Shown here: positions 50,972 through 62,487 of the stretch, in pieces
How the letters are laid out: each line of letters opens with the position of its first letter
How positions within the stretch are numbered: position 1 is the first letter of the stretch
Virus record (IMG/VR): IMGVR_UViG_3300028738_000008
Length of the DNA stretch: 64,000 nt
Origin: a virus
Lineage: Duplodnaviria > Caudoviricetes
Strand: one strand, 5' to 3'
Notes under the pieces: model-generated
Databases searched by the model: none
What the model saw: the letters and a program-made list of their open reading frames with translations, nothing else
What the model was told of the DNA's origin: nothing
Made by a program: the position numbers and the translations under genes

Positions 50972-51043
50972 ATGAGAACAATTTTTAACATAGTACCGCA
51001 GCATCAACCACAACCCTTGAAGTATCTTCAATCGAATGGCTGA
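50972..51043 (+). CDS. leader peptide 1, MRTIFNIVPQHQPQPLKYLQSNG
   Basis: 23-aa ORF between promoter and terminator; core codons CCG CAG CAT CAA CCA CAA CCC. Confidence 0.8.
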   Translation: MRTIFNIVPQHQPQPLKYLQSNG

Positions 51044-51071
51044 ACTATGTAAAAAATAAACATACATAATG

Positions 51072-51108
51072 ATCCCCTTTAATTGAAAGATTAAAGGGGA
51101 TTTTTTTT
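51072..51108 (+). terminator. attenuator terminator 1
   Basis: ATCCCCTTTAAT-TGAAAG-ATTAAAGGGGAT followed by a T run, ending 3 nt before the first tRNA. Confidence 0.88.
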
Positions 51109-51110
51109 AT

Positions 51111-51495: not shown

Positions 51496-51570
51496 GGTGA
51501 TTGTAGCTTAAACGGATAAAGCGCATGCCTGTGAAGCATGTATATGCGAGATCGTACCTCGTCTTTCACC
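51496..51570 (+). tRNA. tRNA-His(GTG), divergent
   Basis: CATGC-CT GTG AA-GCATG; G-1/C73; two T-T acceptor mismatches; atypical T-loop. Confidence 0.7.
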
Positions 51571-51590
51571 CTAATTTTAAATTAAAGATC

Positions 51591-52355
51591 ATGTATTACG
51601 TTGTACAGAAGAATGTTTTTAGGGAAGAAAATTACGATAATTTGATTATCGCTTTGAATCGGTTGGAGTTGCCATATGAGATCGTTGATGTATTACCTTT
51701 TGTAGACACCTTCGAATTCAAGACAACCAGAAAGGATGTTTTTCCTTTCGGAGCTGTTAAAATGTCAAGAATTGCCAAAGAATTGGACTGGAATCCAGGC
51801 TCTCAATTATGTGACAATCATGACTATAACGTATATAGTAAGTATTATAAAGAAAACTTGCTGAACTACGATTCAAGGATTATCAGGTTTGGCGATGATT
51901 TCTTTCAAACAGAAAGGTTCTTTGCACGTCCGACATTGGATACTAAAGTGTTTACTGGTCATGTGTTTGACATGGGCGAATGGATTAAGTTCAGAGACGA
52001 ATCCATTGTCAATGGACATAGCACTTTACTGAACACAGATACTGAAATTCAGATTTCTTCTGTAAAAAATATACAGAAAGAAATAAGGTTTTGGATTGTG
52101 AAAGGCGAAATCGCCACAGCAAGTCAGTATTCTCTGGGTGGAAGATTCTGTGTGAATGAAAACGTCGATCAGTCGGCATATGACTTCGTAAACAGAATGA
52201 TTAAGATATTCGAATTGAATGATACCTTTATTATAGATGCATGCCTTGTTAAAGGCGAATACAAAATAGTTGAATGCGGTTGCACAAACAGTGCTGGCTT
52301 CTATCGAGCAGATATGCAAAAGCTGCTTATGAAATTGGAAGACGCTTTCAATTAA
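51591..52355 (+). CDS. ATP-grasp protein (DUF4343/R2K-like) embedded in tRNA operon 1
   Basis: FFARP..DTKVFTG, IQKEIRFWIVKGEI, FIIDAC...YKIVECGC.NSAGFY; start corrected to ATG 51591 because the listed start lies inside tRNA-His. Confidence 0.8.
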   Translation: MYYVVQKNVFREENYDNLIIALNRLELPYEIVDVLPFVDTFEFKTTRKDVFPFGAVKMSRIAKELDWNPGSQLCDNHDYNVYSKYYKENLLNYDSRIIRFGDDFFQTERFFARPTLDTKVFTGHVFDMGEWIKFRDESIVNGHSTLLNTDTEIQISSVKNIQKEIRFWIVKGEIATASQYSLGGRFCVNENVDQSAYDFVNRMIKIFELNDTFIIDACLVKGEYKIVECGCTNSAGFYRADMQKLLMKLEDAFN

Positions 52356-54546: not shown

Positions 54547-54639
54547 ATGAGAAATTTACTTAACATAGAATTATTGGCAGTGGATCAGGTCAACCTCCTA
54601 TTATGGGCGGATGAAGATAGATTATGCCATGCTGGTTAA
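54547..54639 (+). CDS. leader peptide 2, MRNLLNIELLAVDQVNLLLWADEDRLCHAG
   Basis: 30-aa ORF between promoter and terminator; 19 of 30 residues are L/D/E/V/A/W. Confidence 0.78.
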   Translation: MRNLLNIELLAVDQVNLLLWADEDRLCHAG

Positions 54640-58840: not shown

Positions 58841-60463
58841 ATGAAAACATTACACGAATCGCCATTTGTATATTTATATGAAAACTCTGGCCATAAGGAA
58901 AAAACTGTTCGTAGCATTAATATAAATGCAAGTAAGGCACAAGCAATATACGTTCCAGTGCCACCACCAACAGTTAACGCCTTATTAATGACTTTTAATG
59001 ATATATCAGGTACTTTTGTTACAGACCCATCATCTGTTGAAGAATGGAACATATTTTTTGATTTACCAGTAAATGGTAATCCGTTTACATCTGTCTCAAT
59101 ATCTTCAAATACCGTTAGTTTATTTGGCGGTAGTGACATAACTCTAAAAAATTACTTATTCGGCGATACTGATTTTGGAAACAATCTGTTGGAGTTCATT
59201 GATGATAGCGGAATCATTATTAATAGTGGTAATGGAGCATTTAGCGATACAGGCGAAATTGGTAATGGATGCCACAATATAACAAAAATATCAATGTCAG
59301 CATGCGTATCATTAGGTGATGAAACATTTGCTGATTGCTATTCATTAACAGATTTATCATTACCATTCGATAGTTATGTTACCTTGGGTTCAAATATTTT
59401 TCGTTCTTGTGGTATGGCATCATTAAGCTTTTCATCATTAACAATGGCTGGAGATAGCTGCTTCAATAGCTTGTCACTTTTAACTGAATTTAGTGCACCA
59501 ATATTAATCGTTGCGGATATGAATTGTTTTTCTGGATGCGTTGCAATATCAGCAATATCATTGCCGTCATTAACAACGGCTGGAGACGGCTGTTTCAGTA
59601 ATTGCGTATCGTTATCAATTCCTGATCTACCAATTGCAACAACTGCTGGAGTTAACTGCTTTTACAATTGTTCGACATTATCATCATTATCATTACCAGA
59701 TTTAGTTACTGCTGGAGAAAGCTGTTTCAGTAATTGCGTATCGTTATCAACTGTCGATCTGCCATTATTAACAACTGCTGGAAATGGTTGCTTTTACGGT
59801 TGTCCATTATCATCATTATCATTACCAGATTTAGTTACTGCTGGAGAAAGCTGCTTTATGGGAATAAGATCATTTACTACCATGAATTTACCATCCTTAT
59901 CATCGATAGGTACTACTTGTTTTCAAGATTGCGCATCTTTGTTAGCAGTTAATTTACCAGCATTAATCACAATGGGCGAAGGCTGTTTTAATGGATGCAC
60001 ATCTTTACTAACAGTAGACATGCCACAGTGTCAAACAGCTGGCGGCGGTTGCTTTAGTTATTGTACGTCGTTAACATCAGTAGACATGGCATCACTGATT
60101 TCAATGGGAAATTCATTTTTTTTAAACTGCATATCTTTAGTGACATTAAATCTTCCTTTATTATCGTCTGCCACGCAATCTTGTTTTGCGACCTGTACAT
60201 CATTGGTAGACATCAGTTTACCATCATTAATATCAACTGGTAATTATTTCTTTAACGGCTGTACGTTATTAACAAACATCAGTTTACCGTCATGCGTTAG
60301 TTTAGGACTTACTTTATATAATGATTCAGTTTTCAATAATATTACAGGCAAAAAAATAACTTTAACAGTGCCAACAGCTTTAATGACTTGTAATAGTGGA
60401 TCGCCTGATGGTGATATAGCTTATTTACAGGCTAATAACATAGTAACACTGATAACAGTTTAA
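58841..60463 (+). CDS. BspA-type leucine-rich repeat protein
   Basis: LLMTFNDI module, about 14 L.TAG..CF..C..L repeats, TVPTALMTCNSGSPDGDIAYL cap. Confidence 0.82.
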   Translation: MKTLHESPFVYLYENSGHKEKTVRSININASKAQAIYVPVPPPTVNALLMTFNDISGTFVTDPSSVEEWNIFFDLPVNGNPFTSVSISSNTVSLFGGSDITLKNYLFGDTDFGNNLLEFIDDSGIIINSGNGAFSDTGEIGNGCHNITKISMSACVSLGDETFADCYSLTDLSLPFDSYVTLGSNIFRSCGMASLSFSSLTMAGDSCFNSLSLLTEFSAPILIVADMNCFSGCVAISAISLPSLTTAGDGCFSNCVSLSIPDLPIATTAGVNCFYNCSTLSSLSLPDLVTAGESCFSNCVSLSTVDLPLLTTAGNGCFYGCPLSSLSLPDLVTAGESCFMGIRSFTTMNLPSLSSIGTTCFQDCASLLAVNLPALITMGEGCFNGCTSLLTVDMPQCQTAGGGCFSYCTSLTSVDMASLISMGNSFFLNCISLVTLNLPLLSSATQSCFATCTSLVDISLPSLISTGNYFFNGCTLLTNISLPSCVSLGLTLYNDSVFNNITGKKITLTVPTALMTCNSGSPDGDIAYLQANNIVTLITV

Positions 60464-60502: not shown

Positions 60503-60542
60503 TATTTATACTTGCAGATGTAATTTATTTGAATTACTTTTG
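60503..60542 (+). promoter_or_regulatory. composite promoter of tRNA operon 3
   Basis: TATTTATA, CTTG, N20, TACTTTTG. Confidence 0.8.
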
Positions 60543-60571
60543 CACCAGTTAAAAACAATTAAAAAATAGAA

Positions 60572-60649
60572 ATGATGAATGCAACACTTAAATACGGAAA
60601 GACTACTAAATCTTATAAAAAATATAAGATGAAGAAGGACTGTGTGTAA
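60572..60649 (+). CDS. leader peptide 3, MMNATLKYGKTTKSYKKYKMKKDCV
   Basis: 25-aa ORF with 8 Lys and 3 Tyr between promoter and terminator. Confidence 0.8.
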   Translation: MMNATLKYGKTTKSYKKYKMKKDCV

Positions 60650-60671
60650 GTGAACTATATATAATATATTC

Positions 60672-60706
60672 AAAAACCCAGTCTTAATTTAAGTCTGGGT
60701 TTTTTT
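60672..60706 (+). terminator. attenuator terminator 3 with competing antiterminator
   Basis: AAAAACCCAGTCTTAA-T-TTAAGTCTGGGTTTTTTT; AGGACTG (60636-42) can pair with CAGTCTT (60679-85). Confidence 0.85.
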
Positions 60707-60720
60707 ATGTTAAAAAATTC

Positions 60721-60792
60721 GCTCCTATAGCTTAATGGTAAAGCCTTCGACCTTTAATCGAATGACCCCTGAATCAGTATCAGGTGGGAGCA
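60721..60792 (+). tRNA. tRNA-Lys(TTT), divergent
   Basis: TTCGA-CC TTT AA-TCGAA (C33); T-loop ATCAGTA. Confidence 0.75.
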
Positions 60793-60808
60793 CAGAGTAT
60801 AGTAAGTC

Positions 60809-60879
60809 GCTTCTATAGCTCAATGGTAGAGCTTGTAACTTTTAATTATAAGACCTCGGTTCGATTCCGAGTAGGAGCA
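60809..60879 (+). tRNA. tRNA-Lys(TTT)
   Basis: CT TTT AA loop; canonical T arm. Confidence 0.85.
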
Positions 60880-60889
60880 CAAAATTATT

Positions 60890-60962
60890 GCCTTCGTAGC
60901 TTAATCGGGAAAGCTGTACACTCTTAATGTAAGGAGCGTGAGTTCGATCCTCACCGAGGGCA
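60890..60962 (+). tRNA. tRNA-Lys(CTT)
   Basis: CT CTT AA loop. Confidence 0.85.
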
Positions 60963-60969
60963 CAAATAT

Positions 60970-61051
60970 GGGATGGATGGTAAGCAGGCGAAATCAGCGG
61001 ATTGTAAACCCGTCGCTACCAGCTATTTAGGTTCGAATCCTAACCGTCCCA
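60970..61051 (+). tRNA. tRNA-Tyr(GTA)
   Basis: TT GTA AA loop; long variable arm. Confidence 0.82.
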
Positions 61052-61110
61052 CGTGAGAGACCGTTATAATTTCAAAGTCCACTTGGTATCGGAAGCGTAG
61101 AAATTAATTT

Positions 61111-61194
61111 GGGGATGTATGCAAATGGTTGAAGCAAGCGGTCTGTAAAACCGTGACGTAAGAGACGATGCTGGTTCGAATCCAGCCAGCCCCA
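61111..61194 (+). tRNA. tRNA-Tyr(GTA)
   Basis: GCGGT-CT GTA AA-ACCGT; long variable arm. Confidence 0.87.
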
Positions 61195-61256
61195 CTTGGT
61201 AGACTGTTATAATTTCATAGAACCCATTAAGTGTGGTATGCGTGGAAATTAAAAAT

Positions 61257-61337
61257 GGCGGCAGACGGGTAATGGAAATCCTAGGGGCATGCAATCCTGA
61301 GTCACAGACTATGTTGGTTCGAATCCAACCGTCGCCA
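61257..61337 (+). tRNA. atypical tRNA-like gene of unresolved identity
   Basis: Acceptor GGCGGCA/CGTCGCC and T arm GTTGG TTCGAAT CCAAC; anticodon region GGGGCATGCAATCCT is non-canonical. Confidence 0.5.
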
Positions 61338-61361
61338 CAATGAATTAAAAATTAATTAGAT

Positions 61362-61601
61362 ATGGAAACATTAGTAGAAATCATCAAAGGAAATCGTGCC
61401 GTTATGTCGCACGTATGCAATGCTAAAGCTTATTTTATCATTGAAACAATGAATAACAAGTATCAACTTGAAATGGACAGCACTGATGGTGATTGGAAGA
61501 CAACACACATGCAGACTGAATACGCTGCTATCACATTAATGCGATGGATACGCCGAGGTATTGACGAAAAGGACGGAACATTTATATCACTATATGAATA
61601 A
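61362..61601 (+). CDS. hypothetical protein at the end of tRNA operon 3
   Basis: 79 aa ORF followed by a terminator. Confidence 0.7.
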   Translation: METLVEIIKGNRAVMSHVCNAKAYFIIETMNNKYQLEMDSTDGDWKTTHMQTEYAAITLMRWIRRGIDEKDGTFISLYE

Positions 61602-61623: not shown

Positions 61624-61658
61624 GAATGGCGATTGAAGAAATTTAGTCGCCATTTTTT
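61624..61658 (+). terminator. intrinsic terminator
   Basis: AATGGCGATT...AGTCGCCATT followed by a T run. Confidence 0.75.
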
Positions 61659-61697: not shown

Positions 61698-61769
61698 GGC
61701 TCGTTAGTTCAGCGGTTAGGGCGTCTGACTCTAAATCAGAAGGCATGGTTTCGAATACCATACGAGCCG
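61698..61769 (+). tRNA. amber suppressor tRNA (anticodon CTA)
   Basis: TCTGA-CT CTA AA-TCAGA; perfect acceptor stem GGCTCGT/ACGAGCC; G73. Confidence 0.88.
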
Positions 61770-61783
61770 CAAATAATTATAAT

Positions 61784-62157: not shown

Positions 62158-62487
62158 ATGACGTAGGTTAAATTAGTAACAGTAACAAGGAAAGACCTCA
62201 AAGCAGGTTATCAATTAGTACAGTCAGCACACGGCTTAGCTGAGTTTGCACATGTATATCCAACACATTTCAATGATTGGATGCGAGATTCAAAGTATCT
62301 CGTTTCATTGTCAGTCGATAATGAAGAAAACCTCAAAGAATTATTTAGTGAATTAACCAGTAATGGCGCAATCATTGTGGCATTTAACGAACCTGATATA
62401 AATGATCAGCTGACATCGATATGCTTTTATGGTACGCCAGAGATTAGGAAATTGACTGAACATTTAGATTTAGCATTAAAAAATTAA
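62158..62487 (+). CDS. peptidyl-tRNA hydrolase type 2-like protein with in-frame TAG at codon 3
   Basis: ATG ACG TAG GTT AAA...; MT*VKLVTVTRKDLKAGYQLVQSAHGLAEF...YLVSLSVDNEE...FNEPDINDQLTSICF resembles Pth2 K...V.R.DL....AQ.AHA; frame continuous with ORF 62281..62487. Confidence 0.82.

What the first reader, a model, noticed from the sequence alone, without database searches (positions are those of the whole stretch)
60572..61337. Operon 3: Lys/Tyr leader controlling the tRNA species known to be hit by anti-phage nucleases
KYGKTTKSYKKYKMKK contains 11 Lys or Tyr in 16 residues, uses both AAA and AAG, and precedes tRNA-Lys(TTT) x2, tRNA-Lys(CTT) and tRNA-Tyr x2. AGGACTG near the leader end can pair with CAGTCTT in the terminator arm. 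tRNA-Lys and tRNA-Tyr are established targets of PrrC/PARIS and retron PtuAB. The three Thr codons have no cognate tRNA in the cluster, which is an imperfect point in the match.
Basis: partly seen in the sequence, partly recalled or inferred. Interest (0 to 1): 0.84.

Follow-up and report, generated by a model that had tools for sequence, protein, structure and literature searches.

The report
Leader-peptide attenuator gating phage Lys/Tyr tRNAs
A giant uncultured peat phage places a tiny translated test gene rich in lysine and tyrosine codons, plus a switchable transcription stop, in front of its lysine and tyrosine tRNA genes, so it probably makes these tRNAs only when ribosomes read those codons slowly; I found no published case of this control for tRNA genes.

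Summary
Window 60503-61338 holds a Bacteroidota-type promoter, a 25-codon ORF (8 Lys and 3 Tyr codons), an intrinsic terminator, then tRNA-Lys x3, tRNA-Tyr x2 and a degenerate tRNA-like copy.

- **Folding:** it gives the classical four-segment logic. A ribosome paused at codons 2-18 frees an antiterminator. With no ribosome, or with one at the stop codon, the terminator forms.
- **Paralogues:** the unit is one of three in the window. Relatives carry a fourth, and together the four leaders cover all 20 amino acids.
- **Relatives:** about 20 distinct Lys/Tyr leaders in IMG/VR phage contigs keep the reading frame, a KSYKK core, a terminator and a complementary leader segment. All but two, whose stretches end short, are followed by Lys or Lys and Tyr tRNAs.
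- **Different grouping:** in a 425-kb phage that groups its tRNAs differently, the leader compositions change to match.

The attenuator reading is well supported (about 0.85). The claim that it exists because Lys and Tyr tRNAs are nuclease targets is not. Every amino acid has such a leader, and the Lys+Tyr grouping is not universal. One lead fits the defence idea: U33C variants are concentrated in the family's Lys and Glu tRNAs.

There is no expression evidence. I found no publication. This scan has noted the same kind of unit before on other DNA.

The parts
60503..60546 (+). Promoter of Bacteroidota type: -33 (C)TTG at 60511-60514, 20-nt spacer, -7 box TACTTTTG at 60535-60542
   Evidence: The composite motif occurs exactly three times in the window (50904, 54478, 60503), each time before a leader; 0 expected in shuffles. 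The match to the TTTG / TAnnTTTG consensus is read from the sequence. The consensus itself is recalled from memory.
60572..60649 (+). Leader ORF, 25 codons plus TAA; 8 Lys and 3 Tyr codons; A-rich 5' context without a Shine-Dalgarno sequence
   Evidence: Homologous leaders with a KSYKK core occur in about 20 distinct relatives, and all indels are in frame.
60585..60597 (+). Segment 1 (codons 5-9, including AAA TAC): pairs with segment 2 when no ribosome is present
   Evidence: MFE helices 60585-60590/60647-60652 and 60592-60597/60640-60645. The leader fold is -19.1 kcal/mol, z = -6.4 against shuffles.
60636..60652 (+). Segment 2: 60640-60652 pairs with segment 1; 60636-60647 is the 5' strand of the antiterminator (AGGACTG plus 3 further pairs)
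60651..60672 (+). AT-rich hairpin enclosed by the antiterminator helix
60676..60685 (+). Segment 3: terminator 5' arm, which alternatively pairs with segment 2
   Evidence: Antiterminator structure -12.2 kcal/mol, z = -3.1.
60677..60706 (+). Intrinsic terminator: 10-bp stem with one U-U mismatch (60677-60699, -10.3 kcal/mol) and a T7 run (60700-60706)
60721..60792 (+). tRNA-Lys(UUU) variant with C33 (loop CCUUUAA) and a non-canonical T-loop
   Evidence: Rfam tRNA 53.5 bits, with alignment; missed by ARAGORN
60809..60880 (+). tRNA-Lys(UUU), canonical
60890..60963 (+). tRNA-Lys(CUU)
60970..61052 (+). tRNA-Tyr(GUA)
61111..61195 (+). tRNA-Tyr(GUA), second copy
61254..61338 (+). Degenerate class-II tRNA-like element: third copy of the [tRNA-Tyr + about 58-nt spacer] repeat. 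The acceptor stem has two mismatches and the anticodon loop is CAUGCAA.
   Evidence: Found by ARAGORN only at an 80% threshold. Rfam tRNA-Sec 21 bits, E 0.15. The spacers 61053-61110 and 61196-61253 are alike.

Best explanation
This is a ribosome-mediated (leader-peptide) transcription attenuator that gates a phage tRNA array.

Transcription starts at the promoter at 60503-60546. A ribosome translates the 25-codon leader while RNA polymerase moves toward the terminator at 60677-60706. Three outcomes follow.

- **Lys-tRNA or Tyr-tRNA is scarce.** The ribosome pauses on one of the Lys/Tyr codons 7-18. Segment 1 is covered, so segment 2 (60636-60647) pairs with the terminator 5' arm (60676-60685). 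The terminator cannot form and polymerase reads into tRNA-Lys x3 and tRNA-Tyr x2.
- **Decoding is fast.** The ribosome reaches codons 20-26 or the stop codon and covers segment 2. The terminator forms.
- **There is no translation.** Segment 1 sequesters segment 2, and the terminator forms again.

The result is negative feedback that sets phage tRNA-Lys/Tyr output by how well these codons are being decoded.

**Shown here:** the architecture, the codon bias, the alternative structures and their conservation and covariation.

**Inferred:** that the ORF is translated, that transcription and translation are coupled, that the terminator works, and the direction of the response.
For: 1. **Three paralogous units.** The window holds three promoter / short ORF / terminator / tRNA-array units.
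2. **Codon match.** Each leader is enriched in the amino acids of its own array. In each of six genomes or fragments the true leader-array pairing gives the highest match of all permutations (1 of 6 or 1 of 24). For this leader, K/Y = 11 of 24, P = 1.5e-4.
3. **Folding.** With the A-site at codons 2-18, which include 8 of the 11 K/Y codons, 9 of 10 nucleotides of the terminator 5' arm are sequestered. With no ribosome, or from codon 21 or 22 (by the assumed ribosome edge) to the stop, none are. Leader fold z = -6.4 and antiterminator z = -3.1.
4. **Relatives.** About 20 distinct Lys/Tyr leaders occur in IMG/VR contigs. All keep the frame (indels of 3 nt) and a run like TYYYGKKSYKK; where the fetched stretch reaches that far, each has a terminator (CCCGATTC arm) and a complementary GAATCGGG in the leader. 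All but two, whose stretches end short, are followed by Lys or Lys and Tyr tRNAs. With a ribosome at KSYKK the 5' arm is fully or nearly fully paired upstream in 20 of 21 units, P at or below 0.05 in 16.
5. **Covariation.** The window lineage has a different terminator arm (CAGTCTT) and a matching different leader segment (AGGACTG). Across 16 units with distinct terminator arms, the own leader pairs at a mean of -10.7 kcal/mol against -6.1 for foreign ones (permutation P < 1e-5).
6. **Natural re-partition.** In the 425-kb relative G005, the Lys tRNAs sit with Met/Ile(CAU) and Arg(UCU) behind a K/R/M/I-rich leader with no Tyr. The Tyr tRNAs sit with Thr/Pro/Ala/Ser/Cys/His behind a leader rich in exactly those residues.
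Against: - No RNA data exist. All 24 public runs that hold the stretch are peat DNA assemblies, and nothing shows a 3' end at the terminator.
- The folding is at equilibrium, with an assumed ribosome footprint.
- The antiterminator helix alone is marginal against shuffles (-8.9 kcal/mol, P = 0.07).
- Lys codons 19, 21 and 22 lie too close to segment 2 to give read-through.
- Three Thr codons are not cognate to the array.
- The KSYKK core is conserved at the nucleotide level, so a constraint other than codon identity is possible.
- The relatives are kin, so the counts are not independent events.
- Paralogue 1 in this window shows no significant antiterminator.
Confidence: 0.85

Rival explanations
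1. Same device, but selected mainly as a counter-defence sensor. Host anticodon nucleases that cut tRNA-Lys or tRNA-Tyr stall ribosomes on the leader, and this switches on phage replacement tRNAs.
For: - PrrC, PARIS and retron-Eco7 PtuAB deplete tRNA-Lys or tRNA-Tyr, and phage tRNAs rescue infection (PMC10264068, PMC11555353).
- The first tRNA of the array is a Lys(UUU) with C33, next to a canonical copy.
- Across the family, U33C is concentrated in Lys (11 of 42) and Glu (18 of 44) tRNAs. It often sits beside a U33 copy in the same array.
Against: - Leaders of the same build cover all 20 amino acids, including many with no known nuclease.
- The Lys+Tyr grouping is not kept in G005.
- No defence or anti-defence gene was identified next to the unit.
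- The C33 counts are not corrected for shared ancestry.
Confidence: 0.2
2. The ORF is fortuitous. The hairpin is a leaky or upstream-gene terminator, or a processing signal, and the array is expressed constitutively.
For: AT-rich DNA favours Lys and Tyr codons. There is no expression evidence.
Against: - A dedicated promoter lies between the upstream gene (which ends at 60463) and the ORF.
- The K/Y content is the extreme of 369 short ORFs.
- The frame, the K/Y run and the leader-terminator complementarity are kept in about 20 diverged relatives.
- Leader composition follows array content.
Confidence: 0.04
3. The small ORF encodes a functional micropeptide, either acting in trans or as an arrest peptide. 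Its conservation reflects the peptide, not codon sensing.
For: The core ...YYYGKKSYKK... and the N-terminus MKNLxNI of the other leader classes are conserved as sequence.
Against: - In the Pro/His/Gln class, the order of P, Q and H is shuffled while the composition is kept.
- The leader's 3' part is explained by the RNA pairing.
- The peptides are low-complexity and differ entirely between arrays, in step with the tRNAs.
Confidence: 0.05
4. A translation-independent RNA switch that binds tRNA directly (T-box-like).
For: It controls genes of the translation apparatus through a terminator/antiterminator choice.
Against: - There is no T-box or other Rfam match in 60540-61400, even at E up to 10.
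- There is no specifier-loop architecture.
- Many different codons in a conserved open frame argue for ribosomal reading.
Confidence: 0.02

Closest known systems
Leader-peptide attenuators of amino-acid biosynthetic operons (trpL, hisL, leuL, pheL; multivalent thrL and ilv leaders) of Enterobacteria
   Same: Promoter-proximal short ORF rich in regulatory codons. Four RNA segments give anti-antiterminator, antiterminator and intrinsic terminator. One leader senses several amino acids, as in thrL and ilvL.
   Different: The regulated genes are tRNA genes, not enzymes, so the sensed molecule and the product are the same kind of molecule. The unit is carried by a phage. A set of three or four leaders divides all 20 amino acids. 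There is no sequence or Rfam match to those families.
pheM leader / pheST attenuator of E. coli (from memory)
   Same: Leader-peptide attenuation applied to a gene of the translation apparatus and driven by the supply of charged tRNA.
   Different: It controls a synthetase, senses one amino acid, and is a host gene.
T-box riboswitches
   Same: They read tRNA status and switch a terminator upstream of translation-related genes.
   Different: T-boxes bind uncharged tRNA directly, with no ORF and no ribosome. No T-box model matches here.
Phage tRNA regions used against tRNA-depleting defences (T5 tRNA-Tyr against retron-Eco7, tRNA-Lys against PrrC and PARIS; PMC11555353, PMC10264068)
   Same: Phage-encoded Lys and Tyr tRNAs that can replace depleted host tRNAs. 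Anticodon-loop variants occur.
   Different: In those cases expression is described as strong and constitutive, and no sensing leader is reported. Here no defence system has been identified.

Membership tests
Ribosome-mediated (leader-peptide) transcription attenuator | Short ORF directly downstream of a promoter, with a usable start context | tested here: met
   The promoter motif lies 26 nt upstream of ATG 60572, with an A-rich leader. Translation itself has not been shown.
Ribosome-mediated (leader-peptide) transcription attenuator | Leader enriched in codons that report on the regulated product | tested here: met
   11 of 24 residues are K/Y, P = 1.5e-4. The own-array pairing is best in 6 of 6 genomes.
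Ribosome-mediated (leader-peptide) transcription attenuator | Intrinsic terminator between the leader and the regulated genes | tested here: met
   Stem 60677-60699 plus a T7 run, 14 nt before the first tRNA.
Ribosome-mediated (leader-peptide) transcription attenuator | Mutually exclusive antiterminator whose formation depends on ribosome position | tested here: met
   Position scan, helices, z-scores. This is an equilibrium model only.
Ribosome-mediated (leader-peptide) transcription attenuator | Conservation and covariation of ORF, terminator and antiterminator in relatives | tested here: met
Ribosome-mediated (leader-peptide) transcription attenuator | Read-through that rises when the cognate charged tRNA is limiting | not testable with these tools
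   No RNA runs hold the stretch.
Curated Rfam leader families (Trp, His, Leu, Thr leaders and others) and T-box | Match to the covariance model | tested here: not met
   No such hit in 60540-61400 at E up to 10.
Counter-defence tRNA (nuclease-evading phage tRNA) | Anticodon-loop change at a nuclease recognition or cleavage site, and rescue of infection | tested here: inconclusive
   A C33 tRNA-Lys is present, and C33 is concentrated in Lys and Glu tRNAs across the family. No nuclease is known for the host and there is no functional test.

The most novel reading that the evidence does not exclude
The leaders form a phage-borne, codon-resolved tRNA thermostat. Three or four tiny ORFs divide all 20 amino acids, and each one switches on its own tRNA array when its codons are decoded slowly. 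Host anticodon nucleases are one important trigger. On this reading, the Lys/Tyr unit, with its U33C tRNA-Lys kept beside a canonical copy, acts as an inducible counter-defence module.
Probability: 0.25. Interest if true: 0.9.

Novelty: new variant of a known kind. Interest (0 to 1): 0.8.

Why it matters
Leader-peptide attenuation is a textbook mechanism, but it is known for amino-acid biosynthesis genes and one synthetase operon, not for tRNA genes.

- **A new layer of control.** Here the sensed quantity, decoding speed at given codons, is restored directly by the regulated product. This would give huge phages autonomous, demand-driven control of their own decoding capacity.
- **An open question.** It bears on why large phages carry near-complete tRNA sets: codon compensation, replacement of degraded host tRNAs, or defence evasion. 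The question becomes testable, because the leader is a built-in reporter of which tRNAs run short during infection.
- **A practical part.** The units are compact, about 200 nt, and could serve as natural codon-specific sensors of translation.
- **Not a one-off.** The family is widespread in IMG/VR phage contigs of up to 425 kb, with about 90 leader matches in two pattern scans.

Tried and rejected
- **Expression evidence.** All 24 public runs that hold the stretch are peat-metagenome DNA assemblies. The contigs laid on it are identical in the leader and show no RNA ends, so they say nothing about termination.
- **GenBank phages.** blastn of the window and of a relative's unit hits only tRNAs and ribonucleotide reductase. 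tblastn with a Lys/Tyr leader finds nothing, though the low-complexity filter may mask it.
- **LR756500.1.** The 462-kb uncultured phage that shares the reductase has scattered tRNAs and no leader/terminator units in the 49 kb examined.
- **Own genome.** No whole genome is held for the window.
- **DNA search with the window's Lys/Tyr tRNAs.** It found nothing in five relatives' records. Lys/Tyr units were then found through a Lys-tRNA DNA search in three further large contigs and a leader-core pattern scan.
- **Chance matches.** Some pattern hits, such as the recurring ORF starting MLYIITKKSYKK, have no tRNAs behind them and were discarded.
- **Literature.** Five full-text searches that combined leader peptide or attenuation with phage or tRNA genes found no description of this control.
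By itself it is only marginally better than shuffles (P = 0.07). The case rests on the extended structure and on comparison with relatives.

Full report
**What is in the sequence.** The window is 34% G+C phage DNA. It carries BspA-type LRR, ribonucleotide reductase and R2K ATP-grasp genes and 21-23 tRNA genes. At 60503-60546 lies a composite promoter motif that occurs exactly three times in the window, with none expected in shuffles. It fits the Bacteroidota -33 TTTG / -7 TAnnTTTG layout; the consensus is recalled from memory.

About 26 nt further on starts a 25-codon ORF at 60572-60649. Then come an AT-rich hairpin and an intrinsic terminator (60677-60699 plus T7). After that lie:
- tRNA-Lys(UUU) at 60721, found by Rfam only;
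- tRNA-Lys(UUU) at 60809, tRNA-Lys(CUU) at 60890, and tRNA-Tyr at 60970 and 61111;
- a degenerate tRNA-like third copy of the Tyr repeat at 61254-61338.

**Is it more than chance?** AT-rich DNA favours AAA and TAT, so I used nulls from the window itself. Eleven K/Y in 24 residues has P = 1.5e-4 among all stop-free windows of the six frames. It is the single highest value among 369 short ORFs.

The two paralogous units behave the same way:
- the leader at 50972 carries PQHQPQP and precedes Pro x3, His x2 and Gln x2;
- the leader at 54547 is L/A/V/D/E/W-rich and precedes Asp, Val, Leu x4, Ala and Trp.

In each of six genomes or fragments, the true leader-array pairing scores best of all permutations.

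**Structure.**
- Untranslated, the leader folds at -19.1 kcal/mol (z = -6.4). In this fold 60585-60597 pairs with 60640-60652.
- If a ribosome is placed with its A-site on any of codons 2-18, the free RNA folds differently before the terminator 3' arm is made. Then 60636-60647 pairs with 60676-60685, which is 9 of 10 nucleotides of the terminator 5' arm (-12.2 kcal/mol, z = -3.1). Eight of the eleven K/Y codons lie in this range.
- With the ribosome at codons 20-26 or the stop, or with no ribosome, the 5' arm is free and the terminator forms.

This is the classical 1:2 / 2:3 / 3:4 logic. The terminator is modest (-10.3 kcal/mol, with a U-U mismatch), as expected for a regulated one. Lys codons 19, 21 and 22 are too close to segment 2 to help.

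**Relatives.**
- A 148-kb IMG/VR contig (G001) carries all three units. Unit 3 is identical to the window's. G001 also has a fourth leader, rich in I/S/T/G/N/R/F/M/C, in front of Cys, Ile, Phe, Gly, Met, Asn, Ser, Thr and Arg tRNAs. The four leaders therefore cover all 20 amino acids.
- Contigs that share a 65%- or 46%-identical neighbouring protein have homologous leaders. The order of P, Q and H is shuffled, and indels are in frame.
- A scan for the conserved leader start (MKNLxNI) found about 50 further leaders, each followed by the matching tRNAs.

For the Lys/Tyr class, three large contigs and a pattern scan gave about 20 distinct leaders. One example is MRTFGTYYYGKKSYKKQLIGIGN.... All keep the frame; all but two, whose stretches end short, are followed by Lys or Lys and Tyr tRNAs and a terminator. 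A leader segment GAATCGGG is complementary to the terminator arm CCCGATTC. With a ribosome at KSYKK the arm is fully or nearly fully sequestered in 20 of 21 units.

The window lineage has changed both partners, to AGGACTG and CAGTCTT. Over 16 units with distinct arms, the own leader pairs at a mean of -10.7 kcal/mol against -6.1 for foreign leaders (P < 1e-5).

**A natural re-partition.** In the 425-kb contig G005 the tRNAs are grouped differently, and the leaders follow:
- a K/R/M/I-rich leader without Tyr precedes Met/Ile(CAU) x3, Lys x3 and Arg(UCU) x2;
- a T/S/Y/P/A/H/C leader precedes Tyr, Thr, Pro, Ala, Ser, Cys and His;
- an L/Q leader precedes Gln and Leu.

This argues against simple inheritance of a fixed peptide.

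**Interpretation.** The best explanation is ribosome-mediated attenuation that gives negative feedback on phage tRNA supply (confidence 0.85). The architecture, statistics, alternative folds and covariation are shown. Translation of the ORF, coupling to transcription, and the response itself are inferred.

The defence-specific reading is weaker. The literature statements are right. But the device serves all amino acids, and the Lys+Tyr grouping is lineage-specific.

One lead points that way. The first tRNA-Lys has C33, and in 631 distinct tRNAs from the fetched loci, non-U33 is concentrated in Glu (18 of 44) and Lys (11 of 42). A C33 copy often sits beside a U33 copy in the same array. From memory, PrrC-type nucleases cut next to position 33/34 of such tRNAs. 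These counts are not corrected for shared ancestry.

**Known or new.** No Rfam leader or T-box model matches. GenBank phages show only tRNA similarity. Five literature searches found no description of leader-peptide control of tRNA genes.

Within this scan the same kind of unit has been noted often on other DNA, and on overlapping windows of this genome. Those are unchecked AI notes. My verdict rests on the tests above.

I class it as a new variant of a known kind: a textbook mechanism with a new class of target and a new carrier.

**Limits.**
- There are no RNA data.
- The folding is at equilibrium.
- The relatives are related to one another.
- Paralogue 1 of this window lacks a significant antiterminator.

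Noticed in passing
window 60721-60792, and the Lys/Glu tRNAs of loci L056-L267: U33C variants (loop CCUUUAA) are concentrated in tRNA-Lys (11 of 42) and tRNA-Glu (18 of 44) of this phage family, against 0-2% in Asp, Gln, His, Leu and Pro. They often sit beside a canonical U33 copy in the same array. They may be variants that evade anticodon nucleases. The counts are not tree-corrected.
   Followed up: partly
window 61254-61338, with spacers 61053-61110 and 61196-61253: The [tRNA-Tyr + about 58-nt spacer] unit is repeated. The third copy is a degenerate class-II tRNA-like element with a mismatched acceptor stem and the loop CAUGCAA. Its function is unknown.
   Followed up: partly
window 50972-51110: Paralogue 1 (the Pro/His/Gln leader) of this lineage shows no significant pairing between the leader and its 12-bp terminator arm (-3.4 kcal/mol, P = 0.43). 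Its homologues in other phages have a clear GAATGGGG/CCCCATTC antiterminator.
   Followed up: partly
window 61698-61770 and 62158-62487: An amber-suppressor tRNA(CUA) follows a terminator at 61627-61652. Earlier notes of the scan link it to a Pth2-like gene with an early TAG. I did not examine this.
   Followed up: no
window 51525-52355: An R2K-clade ATP-grasp gene sits inside tRNA array 1, between the His and Gln tRNAs. It is conserved at that place in relatives at 46-95% identity.
   Followed up: partly
G005 (loci L018-L039), reverse-strand positions about 374560-374680: The 425-kb relative appears to use TTGAAA-N17-TATAAT-like promoters before its leaders, not the TTTG/TAnnTTTG type. The device may therefore span phages of different host groups.
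   Followed up: no
Loci L056-L135: Leaders of the Pro/His/Gln, Asp/Glu/Val/Leu/Ala/Trp and Gln/Leu classes share a conserved N-terminus, M(K/R)N(L/S)xx(N/D)I, whatever tRNAs they sense. The reason is unknown; it may concern initiation context or common descent.
   Followed up: no
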